Source: a virus
Direction: 5' to 3' (one strand)
Virus genome (UHGV): UHGV-0164982
Length of the DNA stretch: 64,000 bases
This document shows, in pieces, positions 4,747 through 8,032 of this stretch (positions are counted from its first letter, which is position 1; every line of letters begins with the position of its first letter). Both the position numbers and the translations under genes were made by a program. The notes under the pieces were generated by a model that saw only the letters and a list, made by a program, of their open reading frames with translations, had not been told where the DNA came from and did not search any database.

Positions 4747-7734
4747 ATGAGCTTAAGCGATCAGGTGGTAATGGCCACCAGCATAGAAACGCTGATCGAG
4801 CTGCTAAAGAACCTGCCCGATTATGGGCGGGTTTCGTATGTGGTGACAGCGAAGGGAGACGAGGTAAAAACAGCGTTTGATATCGTCGATGCCTCAGCTC
4901 TTTTGGTATCCAATACTCTGGATGGGAAAATTAATCCTGACTATCCCCAGGAACTTCAACCGCGCGACCGGACCCGCGCATCCAGCCTTCTTCAGGTTAA
5001 CCAGATATCCAAAGATTTGCGGCCTGCTCAGCTTACTGATTCCGGTTTATCCAGCCATGGCGCGCCGATAATTGGTGAGGACAATGCCGTTGAGTCAGGT
5101 AATGGACGGAGCATGGGGATCATTAAAGCCTATCAGGACGGTAATGCGGATCGGTATCGGCAGTACCTGATTGAACATGCGACCGAATTCGGAATACGAC
5201 CTGAAAAGGTTGAATCAATGACGGCTCCGGTACTGGTGCGCCGCCGGTTAACGAAGGTTGACCGTGTTCAGTTTGCCAAGGACTCAAATATTTCTGATCT
5301 CCAGGAAATGGCAGCCAGTGAAAAGGCTTTTGTTGATGCCGACAGCATAACTCCGGCGATGATGGCGCTGTTTAACCCATCAGAAAGCGGAGATCTGCTT
5401 AGCCGCAGTAATGACGCGTTTATTCGCGGATTCATGACGCAAGTTGGTGCCACACAGGCTGCTGGCCTTGTAACGGAAGATGGGCGACCAACACGGCAAC
5501 TTGTTGACCGTATACAAAACGCGATCTTTGCCAAGGCATATAAGGATGCGCGCCTGGTAAGAATGGTTGCAGAAGAACCTGATCCGGATATGCGTAATGT
5601 TCTGACGGCGCTTAATGCGGCAGCCAATGATTTTGTCCAGATGCAGGCTTTGTCAGGAGAAGCGCACAAGCAGGCTGTGACAACTATTGTTGATGGCATT
5701 GAGACAGCGGATAGTCTCGATAAAAAGGCGCTGGCGGCATTGAAAGATGCGGTAGACCTGGTAAGGCAATCGAAGGAGTCAGGCCAACATATTACCGATG
5801 TTATTGCTCAGGGGGATATGTTCAGCGAAACAGCCCCGGAAGTGAAAGCGCTCGCGTTGTTCATCGTCGCGAATAACCGTAGCGCGAAGCGTATGGCCAC
5901 CGCCTTTAAATTGATGGCTCAACGTATCAATGATGAGTTACAGCACCAGGGCCAGGCGCTGGGGGATATGTTTGGCGGTGGTGATGTGTCGTTACAGGAT
6001 ATCCTTCGCCAGGTGTCTCAAGAACTGGAAAACGAAGGCATGCAAGGGATATCCGGCGGTCTTTTCGAGTCAGCTTCCGGCGGTAGTTACAACGGTGTTG
6101 CTCCATATACCAGTTTGCTATTACATCGGGCATCCGGCATCAAAGACATTATTCATCTGATCAGGCTGCTTTCCCGTACAGATCCCCAGGATGAACAGCT
6201 TGTACAAGTGCTTGCGCATTTTGTTCGAATGCCTGTTGCCGACGTGAATAAATGGTGCCGATTATTCGGTATCAGCAATTCGTTACTTCGCGGATTGTTA
6301 AATCACGCATCCTCCCTTGGGCGCGACGGCTTTGATGAGATAGCGCAGGCGATAAAAAACGGAGATATGCCACCAGCTATTGACTGGTTTTCCATTCGCC
6401 CAACCAGGGTGAAAGCATTCCTTAGCGCGGCGCATTCGGCATCACCATTGGCAGAAATGATTCAGAGGTTGTCGCTCATATTCACAGACCATACCGCGTT
6501 GGGTGATCTGACTCTGGACGAGATGAAAGAAGCCTCCATTCAGTGGGCCGATCAACAAAATGAGGTTAACTCAGACTTCTTGCCAGCATTCAGGAAGGCC
6601 GTTAGTAAAGCGGATGATGCCCGTGGAATTCTGAAGGCATTTAAGGCATTGCAAAGTCGGGTTAATAAACATGTCGGTGATATCGATGAGGTAACGGCGG
6701 AAGGCAGGGATATCCTTAAAGAGCACGGCATAACGCCAGAGTTTATTGATGAGATCAGGACGGATATGCAGCGTGAGGTCGTATCGTCCCTGCAAATCGT
6801 AGCCAGAGCGTTGGCGGATGCTAATCCGAAGAGTGCGGCCATTGTTAACCGGGTTATTGGTGATATTGAAGCATCGGAGGGCATGGGGGCGCTGAAACTC
6901 TTCCTTTCGCGAGCGTTTAATCCTAACGGCAATATTCTCCCTGGCATTATTGGTGAGGCTAAAAAGTATGTCAGTGAAGAAGAACTTGAGCAGCTTGACC
7001 AACTACTTAAGCGATTCTCATATAACCAGCAGACACGCTGGCAAATGAATCAGCGAAGTATGGGGTCGGTCCACGAGAAAGTGTTATCTGCCATGAACAG
7101 TGCGATCGCAAACTCATACGTATCTGAAGAAAAAGCTCTTGAGTGGGCCGACTCTTTTATCACGGAAGAAGTGGAAGAAGCTCGCGCTGGACAGAATGGT
7201 GGGATAGACCTGCGCAAGGAACTTGCTGATATTTATCGCCTGACCGGCGGGAAAATATCGACCTTATCAAAAGTAGTTCACCACCAGGGAAGGGCATATG
7301 CAAATCTAAATGGTGTTGTTGCTGTCAATTTGAACGATGAAAATGCAAGTGCACTGTGGCACGAGCTGGGTCATCATCTTGAGTACAGTAACCCTGGTTT
7401 GTTAGAGAAAGCCCGGTCATTCCTGAAGGCCAATGTTGAAGGGGATAAGCCATCATTCGTCAATATCGGTGGGCGTGGCAAGCCTGAATGGTGCTTCAGA
7501 TCTCGATTGAGTAATATTTATATGGCGAAGGTATACCCGCCAGTCTCAGTGAGTAACTCAGGGAAAATTCGGCAGAAATCACCGACTATTTCCAAAACGT
7601 CAGCAACGGAAGTATTCTCTATGGCTCTTCAGTTGTATCATGACAAAGAGGCCGCTGCCGCATCACTGATGAATGGTGACGGATTGCTGGAACTGTTATT
7701 AGGTGTGGCAAAGGAGCTAAATAATGCAGATTAA
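4747..7734 (+). CDS. ddrB: DdrB-like large virion antirestriction-associated protein
   Basis: 995 aa ORF following ddrA; synteny and size match recalled P1 DdrB. Confidence 0.55.
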   Translation: MSLSDQVVMATSIETLIELLKNLPDYGRVSYVVTAKGDEVKTAFDIVDASALLVSNTLDGKINPDYPQELQPRDRTRASSLLQVNQISKDLRPAQLTDSGLSSHGAPIIGEDNAVESGNGRSMGIIKAYQDGNADRYRQYLIEHATEFGIRPEKVESMTAPVLVRRRLTKVDRVQFAKDSNISDLQEMAASEKAFVDADSITPAMMALFNPSESGDLLSRSNDAFIRGFMTQVGATQAAGLVTEDGRPTRQLVDRIQNAIFAKAYKDARLVRMVAEEPDPDMRNVLTALNAAANDFVQMQALSGEAHKQAVTTIVDGIETADSLDKKALAALKDAVDLVRQSKESGQHITDVIAQGDMFSETAPEVKALALFIVANNRSAKRMATAFKLMAQRINDELQHQGQALGDMFGGGDVSLQDILRQVSQELENEGMQGISGGLFESASGGSYNGVAPYTSLLLHRASGIKDIIHLIRLLSRTDPQDEQLVQVLAHFVRMPVADVNKWCRLFGISNSLLRGLLNHASSLGRDGFDEIAQAIKNGDMPPAIDWFSIRPTRVKAFLSAAHSASPLAEMIQRLSLIFTDHTALGDLTLDEMKEASIQWADQQNEVNSDFLPAFRKAVSKADDARGILKAFKALQSRVNKHVGDIDEVTAEGRDILKEHGITPEFIDEIRTDMQREVVSSLQIVARALADANPKSAAIVNRVIGDIEASEGMGALKLFLSRAFNPNGNILPGIIGEAKKYVSEEELEQLDQLLKRFSYNQQTRWQMNQRSMGSVHEKVLSAMNSAIANSYVSEEKALEWADSFITEEVEEARAGQNGGIDLRKELADIYRLTGGKISTLSKVVHHQGRAYANLNGVVAVNLNDENASALWHELGHHLEYSNPGLLEKARSFLKANVEGDKPSFVNIGGRGKPEWCFRSRLSNIYMAKVYPPVSVSNSGKIRQKSPTISKTSATEVFSMALQLYHDKEAAAASLMNGDGLLELLLGVAKELNNAD

Positions 7735-8032
7735 AATCGCAGCGCCATTAGGCGGAGATGTCATTATCGAATTTGATGATAATGAAGAAGTTTCCGGGCG
7801 TTTAAGCATTATCTCCGGTGACATTACCGAGGACATGATCGCTGAAGCCATAGCTGGAGCAAATCCCAATAGCTATATGGGATTCGTTAACACCCTTGAT
7901 GCTCCCGCAAGTGATGTTCTCCGAACGCTGCATCTTTACGCTGGCTGGTTTGTTGATTGGCCTGTTGTAGATGGTGGCGATGAGGACGACGACGATGATT
8001 TTGGTGATCATGTAGGTCAGAATGTTTATTAA
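7724..8032 (+). CDS. highly acidic small protein at end of dar operon
   Basis: 102 aa, overlaps ddrB stop; C-terminal DGGDEDDDDDFGD acidic tract. Confidence 0.5.
   Translation: MQIKIAAPLGGDVIIEFDDNEEVSGRLSIISGDITEDMIAEAIAGANPNSYMGFVNTLDAPASDVLRTLHLYAGWFVDWPVVDGGDEDDDDDFGDHVGQNVY

What the first reader, a model, noticed from the sequence alone, without database searches (positions are those of the whole stretch)
7724..8032. Strongly acidic 102-aa protein at the end of the antirestriction operon
The last cistron of the hdf-darA-ddrA-ddrB operon ends in DGGDEDDDDDFGD and is acidic overall. In an operon of virion-packaged antirestriction proteins, this could be a DNA-mimic inhibitor or a chaperone for basic cargo.
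Basis: inference. Interest (0 to 1): 0.4.

Follow-up and report, generated by a model that had tools for sequence, protein, structure and literature searches.

The report
Acidic DdrB-coupled protein Hxr of P1
The acidic 102-residue protein is real and is the known but unstudied gene hxr of P1-like phages; it is probably mislabelled as a repressor, does not resemble known DNA mimics, and most likely works as a helper or brake for the neighbouring antirestriction protein DdrB.

Summary
The ORF at 7724-8032 (+) is real. It is gene hxr (ORFVIII) of a P1-like phage-plasmid and the last cistron of the late darA operon. It has 22 D/E against 3 K/R, pI about 3.5, and is the most acidic of 86 ORFs in the window.

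The protein has an 80-residue core under strong purifying selection (dN/dS 0.04-0.13). A disordered tail of about 20 residues follows; its sequence drifts but its charge (-8 to -14) is always kept.

In all 12 resolved loci hxr overlaps the ddrB stop by 11-17 nt behind a conserved AAGGAG. It stays with the last ~120 residues of DdrB through mosaicism and gene decay. In a Desulfovibrio phage where ddrB is split, a similarly sized acidic ORF follows the metallopeptidase half.

My best reading (inferred, about 0.45) is a producer-cell chaperone or inhibitor of DdrB's C-terminal peptidase module. A trans-acting DNA mimic is less likely. Its function has never been tested.

The parts
7724..8032 (+). 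hxr coding sequence (102 codons plus stop); equals P1 hxr / ORFVIII of the darA operon
   Evidence: ORF list and sequence. It is 96% identical to P1 Hxr. PHROG 2292, unknown function, E 1e-56. The ORF is intact in 80 of 80 close relatives. Core dN/dS is 0.04-0.13.
7724..7969 (+). Folded core, residues 1-82: strands at 2-6, 12-16 and 28-32, helix 36-44, PNSxxGxVN loop, helix 62-71, then GWxVxWP
   Evidence: AF2 model: pLDDT about 85 over residues 1-80. Invariant residues are G53, V65, L66, R67, W75, W79 and P80. No fold match was found.
7970..8029 (+). Disordered polyanionic C-terminal tail, residues 83-102 (DGGDEDDDDDFGDHVGQNVY), net -8.8
   Evidence: pLDDT is below 50. Tail charge is -8 to -14 in all 20 family members, while its sequence is not conserved and it ends hydrophobic-hydrophobic-N or VY. 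The D-run is 4-9 residues long among close relatives and is always in frame.
7711..7716 (+). Shine-Dalgarno AAGGAG for hxr, embedded in the ddrB codons for Lys-Glu
   Evidence: An AAGGAG/AAGGAA-type motif lies 7-8 nt before the start codon in 11 of the 12 loci examined; the P7-like L003 has CAGGAG.
7724..7734 (+). 11-nt overlap of the hxr start with the ddrB end (ddrB TAA at 7732-7734, inside hxr codons 3-4), implying translational coupling
   Evidence: Sequence. The same arrangement, with 11-17 nt overlap, occurs in 12 loci down to about 31% Hxr identity.
4747..7734 (+). ddrB (995 aa): N-terminal DdrB-ParB domain and a C-terminal HExxH metallopeptidase module; the proposed partner of Hxr
   Evidence: Pfam PF18763, E 1.9e-39. 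WHELGHH is invariant. The peptidase assignment and the processing to 76 kDa come from PMC5512222.
7399..7641 (+). DdrB residues about 885-965, just after HExxH (872-876): the only basic segment of an otherwise acidic protein
   Evidence: Net charge is +6 to +10 in all 11 orthologues, against -18 to -31 for whole DdrB. This segment co-varies with Hxr in the P7-like mosaic and persists next to hxr in a decayed element.
8067..8118 (+). Terminator-like hairpin (18 base pairs, with one unpaired base, around a 3-nt loop) followed by GAUUUUAUAAUU; the likely end of the operon in this element
   Evidence: RNA fold: -23.1 kcal/mol for 8025-8135, z = -2.56. P1 has an annotated terminator at the equivalent position, but its sequence differs.
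1046..1084 (+). Late promoter of the darA operon (-22 box and -10), which drives lydA through hxr
   Evidence: Identical at all 65 aligned positions spanning the promoter annotated in AJ000741 at 1017-1055.

Best explanation
The ORF is hxr, the conserved last gene of the late darA operon of P1-like phage-plasmids. It encodes a small protein with a compact alpha/beta core of unknown fold and a floppy tail of about 20 residues made mostly of Asp and Glu. I propose that Hxr is a dedicated partner of DdrB that acts in the phage-producing cell. In this model it is made by coupled translation straight after DdrB's C-terminal zinc-metallopeptidase module. It docks on that module, with the acidic tail lying on the adjacent basic patch (DdrB residues about 885-965). 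There it either keeps the peptidase quiet or keeps DdrB competent for assembly until DdrB is processed and loaded into the procapsid. Hxr itself would not be a major virion component. What is shown: gene identity, acidity, architecture, purifying selection, conserved coupling and co-inheritance with the DdrB C-terminus, and the absence of HTH, Ocr or ArdA features. What is inferred: physical binding to DdrB, the role of the tail, and the choice between chaperone and inhibitor.
For: Identity and operon position. In all 12 resolved loci, hxr directly follows ddrB with an 11-17 nt overlap behind a conserved Shine-Dalgarno sequence. The pair stays together when insertions separate ddrB from ddrA (L007, L011). 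In the P7-like L003, DdrB is 90-100% identical to the window (50-aa windows) up to about residue 870. Identity then drops to 58-76% from the HExxH motif onward, together with Hxr at 61%. The decayed element L014 keeps only the last 122 residues of DdrB plus hxr. More distant P1-like elements in Serratia and Pantoea carry detectable Hxr homologues in the same overlapping position (hhalign probability 72-95%). Rosenbergiella, Chimaeribacter and Desulfovibrio loci carry an ORF of 107-119 aa with net charge -14 to -17 in that position. In the Desulfovibrio phage ddrB is split, and the acidic ORF follows the peptidase-bearing gene, not the ParB-bearing one. DdrB's post-HExxH segment is its only basic region, +6 to +10 in 11 orthologues, which matches the -8 to -14 tail. 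The core has dN/dS of 0.04-0.13; the tail varies in sequence but keeps its charge and reading frame in 80 of 80 relatives. Hxr is absent from the 27-protein P1 virion proteome (PMC9024508). It is dispensable for plaque formation (PMC10695390).
Against: No binding or activity data exist. Tight linkage and co-variation could reflect only physical proximity next to a recombination hotspot. The small acidic ORFs in Rosenbergiella, Chimaeribacter, Desulfovibrio and the cyanobacterium are not demonstrably homologous. In Uliginosibacterium and Luteimonas a DarB-like gene follows the ddrB-like gene instead. The virion-proteome negative is weak, because Hxr yields only one tryptic peptide of convenient size. 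The metallopeptidase assignment rests on the HExxH motif and on PMC5512222; Pfam has no hit for it.
Confidence: 0.45

Rival explanations
1. Hxr is a stand-alone DNA-mimic antirestriction protein in the manner of Ocr or ArdA. It would be packaged or expressed so that its polyanionic surface titrates type I (or other) restriction enzymes or other DNA-binding defence proteins.
For: Extreme acidity (pI 3.5, net -19) is conserved across the family. The gene sits in an antirestriction operon. Known DNA mimics have many unrelated folds, so lack of fold similarity does not exclude mimicry. The tandem-duplicated variant in L003 might hint that two cores act together, as the Ocr and ArdA dimers do (my own knowledge; one search was inconclusive).
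Against: No Pfam family is hit at E<=10, including Ocr and ArdA, and there is no fold match. The invariant residues are hydrophobic or structural plus one Arg; only about six acidic columns are conserved, and half the charge lies in a disordered, fast-evolving tail. The gene is driven by a late promoter. The protein was not reported in virions. Dar protection acts only in cis on co-packaged DNA (PMC12707154), unlike a diffusible decoy. Its linkage is specifically to the DdrB C-terminus.
Confidence: 0.15
2. Hxr is a low-copy virion protein. It could be an adaptor that bridges DdrB to DarB/Ulx during loading, or an internal polyanion that travels with the Dar proteins and the DNA on ejection.
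For: All other products of the operon from hdf to ddrB are head-internal proteins. DdrB is needed for DarB incorporation (PMC9024508). In two distant loci a DarB-like gene takes the position of hxr directly after the ddrB-like gene. The proteomic negative is weak.
Against: Hxr was not among the 27 proteins detected, although DdrA (13 kDa) was. The N-termini of the DarB-like proteins and the C-terminal extensions of distant DdrB-like proteins show no Hxr similarity.
Confidence: 0.2
3. Hxr is an Xre-type helix-turn-helix repressor, as the P1 genome annotation suggests.
For: The P1 record notes 28% identity over about 58 residues to an Xre repressor.
Against: No HTH family is hit at E<=10 by any of the 20 members. 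The predicted secondary structure is three strands, two helices and a strand, not a five-helix bundle. No HTH structure appears among the fold matches. A protein with net charge -19 and three basic residues is poorly suited to bind DNA.
Confidence: 0.02

Closest known systems
P1 Hxr (AAQ13995; ORFVIII of the darA operon, AJ000741)
   Same: It is the same gene: 96% identical protein, same overlap with ddrB and same operon.
   Different: The window variant has four substitutions (V13, N55, G98, N100). Sequence downstream of the stop is unrelated to P1, which has isaB and IS1 there.
T7 Ocr and ArdA DNA-mimic antirestriction proteins
   Same: Small, very acidic proteins of mobile elements that face type I restriction.
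   Different: There is no sequence-profile or fold similarity. Much of Hxr's charge is in a disordered tail. Hxr is late-expressed and tied to DdrB. The Dar system acts in cis.
Class I type III secretion chaperones (SycE, CesT and similar); functional analogy from my own knowledge
   Same: Small (about 100-130 aa), acidic, alpha/beta proteins encoded next to the gene of a protein that is delivered into another cell. They are not delivered themselves.
Immunity or inhibitor genes downstream of toxin or peptidase modules in polymorphic-toxin and polyvalent-protein loci (PMC5512222)
   Same: A small gene immediately downstream of, and overlapping, the C-terminal enzymatic module of a large delivered multidomain protein.
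   Different: DdrB is not known to be toxic, and no known immunity family is matched. The polyvalent-protein passages retrieved from PMC5512222 do not mention Hxr.
Acidic C-terminal tails of SSB, T7 gp2.5 and T4 gp32 (my own knowledge)
   Same: A disordered acidic tail ending in hydrophobic residues, used as a docking or competitor element.
   Different: The terminal motif (I/V-V-N or V-Y) is not the SSB DDDIPF tip. A DDDDDFG-type string is largely confined to close P1 relatives.

Membership tests
Xre / HTH_3 repressors (the current P1 annotation) | Match to an HTH_3 or related helix-turn-helix sequence profile | tested here: not met
   Pfam at E<=10 gives no family for the window protein. None of the 20 family members hits any HTH family. 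NCBIfam gives none.
Xre / HTH_3 repressors (the current P1 annotation) | All-helical (about five helices) DNA-binding fold | tested here: not met
Xre / HTH_3 repressors (the current P1 annotation) | Basic or neutral DNA-contacting surface | tested here: not met
   Three K/R against 22 D/E, net -18.5.
Ocr (T7 gp0.3) and ArdA DNA mimics | Sequence-profile membership (Pfam Ocr and ArdA families) | tested here: not met
   No Pfam hit at E<=10 for any of the 20 members.
Ocr (T7 gp0.3) and ArdA DNA mimics | Fold similarity to the solved Ocr or ArdA structures | tested here: not met
Ocr (T7 gp0.3) and ArdA DNA mimics | High density of negative charge | tested here: met
   pI 3.48 and net -0.19 per residue, the most acidic ORF in the window.
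Ocr (T7 gp0.3) and ArdA DNA mimics | Present in the recipient cell early, and able to act in trans on the restriction enzyme | tested here: inconclusive
   The late operon promoter is conserved. Hxr is not in the virion proteome. Dar acts only in cis according to PMC12707154.
P1 Dar antirestriction system components | Encoded in the darA or darB operons and conserved with them | tested here: met
   Last cistron of the darA operon. Syntenic with ddrB in all resolved P1-like loci.
P1 Dar antirestriction system components | Incorporated into the phage head | tested here: inconclusive
   Hxr is absent from the published list of 27 virion proteins. Only one tryptic peptide is of convenient size, so the two-peptide threshold is hard to reach.
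P1 Dar antirestriction system components | Loss changes the restriction phenotype or the packaging of other Dar proteins | not testable with these tools
   No single-gene hxr mutant was found in the literature held. CRISPRi shows only that it is dispensable for plaque formation.
Cognate chaperone or inhibitor of a delivered effector (functional class) | Small gene adjacent to and co-inherited with the client's gene or module | tested here: met
   Conserved overlap and Shine-Dalgarno sequence. Co-variation with, and retention alongside, the last ~120 residues of DdrB. A positional equivalent follows the peptidase half of a split ddrB.
Cognate chaperone or inhibitor of a delivered effector (functional class) | Direct physical binding to the client | not testable with these tools
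Only charge complementarity is shown.

The most novel reading that the evidence does not exclude
Small polyanionic proteins of the Hxr type are cognate regulators ('safety catches') of the zinc-metallopeptidase modules that process injected polyvalent antirestriction proteins. They would form a seventh, non-virion component of Dar-like systems, present from Enterobacterales phage-plasmids to Desulfovibrio phages, and would control when DdrB is cleaved and loaded.
Probability: 0.2. Interest if true: 0.6.

Novelty: new member of a known kind. Interest (0 to 1): 0.4.

Why it matters
The P1 Dar system is the classic example of virion-delivered protection against type I restriction and BREX, and its mechanism is still unknown. 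It is described as having six proteins. hxr is a seventh gene, as conserved and as tightly linked as the others, yet it has apparently never been tested and carries a probably wrong label ('possible repressor') that spreads through annotations of P1-like plasmids. If Hxr controls DdrB processing or loading, it would help explain the ordered assembly of Dar proteins and the confusing phenotypes of dar mutants. If it proves to be a decoy after all, it would be a new DNA-mimic fold. Either outcome can be reached with one clean deletion and a pull-down.

Tried and rejected
1. Fused structure prediction. No complex model was obtained.

2. The afdb50 fold library was unavailable.

3. Tandem variant. 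The AF2 model of the naturally duplicated Hxr (P0015) gave pTM 0.55. All homologues aligned to the second repeat only, so it says nothing firm about dimerisation.

4. Rosetta-stone fusions. The 150-180 residue C-terminal extensions of distant DdrB-like proteins (L104-L106) and the N-termini of the DarB-like proteins that follow them show no Hxr similarity by hhalign.

5. Paralogy with DdrA, the other small acidic product of the operon, is not supported (BLASTP E 0.16).

6. SSB-tail mimicry. A DDDDDFG-type string is largely confined to close P1 relatives, and the family-wide terminus is (I/V)VN.

7. FG-GAP/VCBS repeat proteins hit in the exhaustive search (P0021, P0025, P0030). These are short repeated matches to GDxTxDxxAExxxGA, which I judge spurious.

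8. A PDB sequence-profile hit to the RapA C-terminus at E 0.75 is not significant.

9. A frameshift fusion of DdrB and Hxr is unlikely. A TAA lies one codon upstream of the hxr ATG in its own frame, and the Shine-Dalgarno sequence is conserved.

10. Piya et al. 2017 and Lobocka et al. 2004 could not be read in the held library.
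Full report
**What is there**

The window is a P1-like phage-plasmid. Positions 7400-8035 are 97.8% identical to phage P1. 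The surrounding genes are cin, lydA, lydB, hdf, darA, ddrA and ddrB, in P1 order.

The ORF at 7724-8032 (+) encodes 102 residues. Residues 83-95 read DGGDEDDDDDFGD and are followed by HVGQNVY. The protein has 22 D/E against 3 K/R, net charge about -18.5 and pI 3.48. It is the most acidic of the 86 ORFs of at least 90 aa in the window.

[quoted passage not shown] In the original darA operon record it is ORFVIII, the last ORF before an annotated terminator.

The late promoter of the operon is identical in the window. Similarity to P1 stops 3 nt after the hxr stop codon. A different, strong hairpin followed by a U-run lies at 8067-8118.

**Is it a real gene?**

Yes.
- A PHROG family of unknown function matches end to end (E 1e-56).
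- An exhaustive search of 1.8 billion representatives, plus two profile searches, finds a small family of proteins of 95-104 aa at 26-96% identity. An 84-aa partial and a 184-aa tandem duplicate also belong to it.
- The longer contigs that carry family members, typically 80-105 kb, come from Enterobacterales: Escherichia, Klebsiella, Citrobacter, Rosenbergiella, Serratia and Pantoea. Every member is named "hypothetical protein".
- The first 80 residues have dN/dS of 0.04-0.13 wherever dS is not saturated.
- Among 80 close relatives in IMG/VR the ORF is intact in all. The core is almost invariant. The Asp run varies from 4 to 9 residues but is never out of frame.

**Architecture**

AF2 with a 20-sequence alignment gives a confident core, pLDDT about 85 over residues 1-80. 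It has strands at 2-6, 12-16 and 28-32, helices at 36-44 and 62-71, and a final short strand. The tail (residues 83-102) has pLDDT below 50 and is predicted disordered.

The invariant residues are G53, V65, L66, R67, W75, W79 and P80. They lie in or near the PNSxxGxVN, VLRS and GWxVxWP motifs. Only about six acidic columns are conserved.

After the WP motif every member carries 20-25 residues with net charge -8 to -14. The sequence of this tail is unconserved, and it ends in (I/V)(V/I)N or VY. Its composition, length and frame are kept while its sequence drifts, which suggests that these properties are what selection maintains.

**What it is not**

*Not an Xre-type repressor.* None of the 20 members hits any HTH family at E<=10, and NCBIfam is silent. 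The predicted secondary structure is not a helical bundle. A protein with net charge -19 is unlikely to bind DNA.

*No evidence for Ocr or ArdA membership.*
- No Pfam hit.
- Foldseek against the PDB gives E of at least 1.1.
- Foldseek against viral models gives E of at least 0.34.

The fold is therefore an orphan, or the model is not accurate enough to place. DNA mimics have many unrelated folds, so this lowers "is an Ocr/ArdA" more than it lowers "works like a mimic".

**What it travels with**

In all 12 loci where the context could be read, hxr starts 11-17 nt before the ddrB stop. The AAGGAG that encodes Lys-Glu of DdrB serves as the Shine-Dalgarno sequence 7-8 nt upstream of the start. The ddrB TAA lies inside hxr codons 3-4. 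This holds down to about 31% Hxr identity.

The ddrB-hxr pair survives events that break other links:
- Insertions separate ddrB from ddrA in L007 and L011.
- In the P7-like L003, DdrB is 90-100% identical to the window (50-aa windows) until about residue 870. Identity then falls to 58-76% from the HExxH motif (872-876) onward, together with Hxr at 61%.
- The decayed element L014 keeps only the last 122 residues of DdrB, starting inside HExxH, plus hxr.

A scan of species-representative genomes with the DdrB C-terminal domain found more distant loci.
- Serratia and Pantoea elements have an overlapping or abutting ORF of 101-104 aa with net charge -16 to -20. It is homologous to Hxr (hhalign probability 72-95%, E 3e-5 to 6e-8).
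- Rosenbergiella, Chimaeribacter and a Desulfovibrio phage have an ORF of 107-119 aa with net charge -14 to -17 in the same place. Its homology to Hxr cannot be shown.
- In the Desulfovibrio locus the Dar operon is recognisable (hdf-like, darA-like) but ddrB is split. The acidic ORF abuts the gene that carries the peptidase module. The ParB domain is in a separate gene further downstream.
- Two loci, Uliginosibacterium and Luteimonas, have a DarB-like methyltransferase gene in that position instead of hxr.

**Mechanistic inference**

DdrB has an N-terminal DdrB-ParB domain. Its C-terminal HExxH module has been interpreted as an autoprocessing metallopeptidase, and DdrB is reported to be cut to 76 kDa before packaging (PMC5512222).

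DdrB as a whole is acidic (-18 to -31). The roughly 80 residues just after HExxH are its only basic stretch, +6 to +10 in all 11 orthologues. This is the segment that co-varies with Hxr and persists next to it.

Hxr is expressed late and is dispensable for plaque formation (PMC10695390). It is absent from the 27-protein virion proteome (PMC9024508). That last negative is weak, because Hxr yields only one tryptic peptide of convenient size.

Dar protection acts only in cis on co-packaged DNA (PMC12707154). That argues against a diffusible decoy contributing to it.

Together these points favour a producer-cell partner of the DdrB C-terminal module. It would be made stoichiometrically by coupled translation and would use its polyanionic tail on the basic patch, acting as an assembly chaperone or as a brake on the peptidase. 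I put this at about 0.45. An adaptor or minor virion role gets 0.2, a stand-alone DNA mimic 0.15 and the annotated repressor 0.02. Binding, the role of the tail and the inhibitor-versus-chaperone choice are all inferred.

**Limits**

- The afdb50 library was unavailable.
- The model of the natural tandem duplicate was uninformative about dimerisation (pTM 0.55).
- Co-inheritance may simply reflect adjacency to a recombination hotspot.
- Key papers (Piya 2017, Lobocka 2004, Iida 1998) were not readable here.
- In the literature held, Hxr appears only in gene tables.

**Novelty and verdict**

The gene is known, but its function is not. The existing label is probably wrong, and Hxr is not counted among the six Dar proteins. 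The finding is best filed as a probable additional, non-virion member of the Dar system. It is of moderate interest and can be tested directly with a clean deletion and a pull-down.

Noticed in passing
window 9538-10383 (-): A 281-aa ORF whose C-terminus (residues 197-280) matches the Tad2-like Thoeris anti-defence domain (PF11195, E 2.5e-22). RefSeq plasmids name it a DUF2829 protein. It lies in the variable stretch between hxr and ssb.
   Followed up: partly
window 8033-8637 (+): Similarity to P1 ends at 8035. An AT-rich spacer follows, then a 144-aa Cys-rich ORF (8203-8637, GC 0.31, several CxxC pairs) with no family above threshold. P1 has isaB and IS1 at this position.
   Followed up: partly
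window 8033-10400, and L001, L003, L004, L010, L013 downstream of hxr: The region just downstream of hxr is a cargo hotspot in P1-like elements. It holds IS1/isaA/isaB in P1, a porin gene in the P7-like L003, a RelE/MqsA toxin-antitoxin pair in L010 and DUF905 genes in L013. In L004 only 29 nt separate hxr from ssb. The window's version is shared at 95-100% identity by a minority of E. coli and E. fergusonii plasmids.
   Followed up: partly
window 12008-13216 (+): A 402-aa IS605-family OrfB/TnpB protein (OrfB_IS605 E 3e-32, with a Cas12f1-like TNB domain) lies between the lysozyme region and pro. No such gene is annotated at this position in the P1 record.
   Followed up: partly
L003 8001-8555: A P7-like element encodes a tandem-duplicated Hxr of 184 aa. 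The first copy keeps only a short acidic linker (DDEEDLIV) and the second has the full tail.
   Followed up: partly
L016-L095, position 3923 onward: The Asp run of Hxr is length-polymorphic (4-9 residues) among 80 near-identical P1 relatives, always in frame. A minority carry an alternative tail ending (EEVFSDETVNQLLY).
   Followed up: yes
L105 22-7105: A Desulfovibrio MAG contig carries a Dar-like operon with hdf-like and darA-like (DarA_N + LPD3) genes. Its ddrB is split into a peptidase-bearing gene and a separate ParB-bearing gene.
   Followed up: partly
L104 4574 onward; L106 2106 onward: In Uliginosibacterium and Luteimonas the ddrB-like gene is followed, with a 4-nt overlap, by a large DarB-like protein with an N6-adenine methyltransferase-like motif (NVPFG; judged by eye). 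ddrB and darB are therefore adjacent there, unlike in P1.
   Followed up: no
P0021, P0025, P0030 (exhaustive search hits): FG-GAP/VCBS-type repeat proteins score up to E 1e-7 against Hxr through repeated GDVTGDGVAEIVTGAG units that resemble Hxr residues 32-48. I judged these compositional or repeat artefacts.
   Followed up: partly
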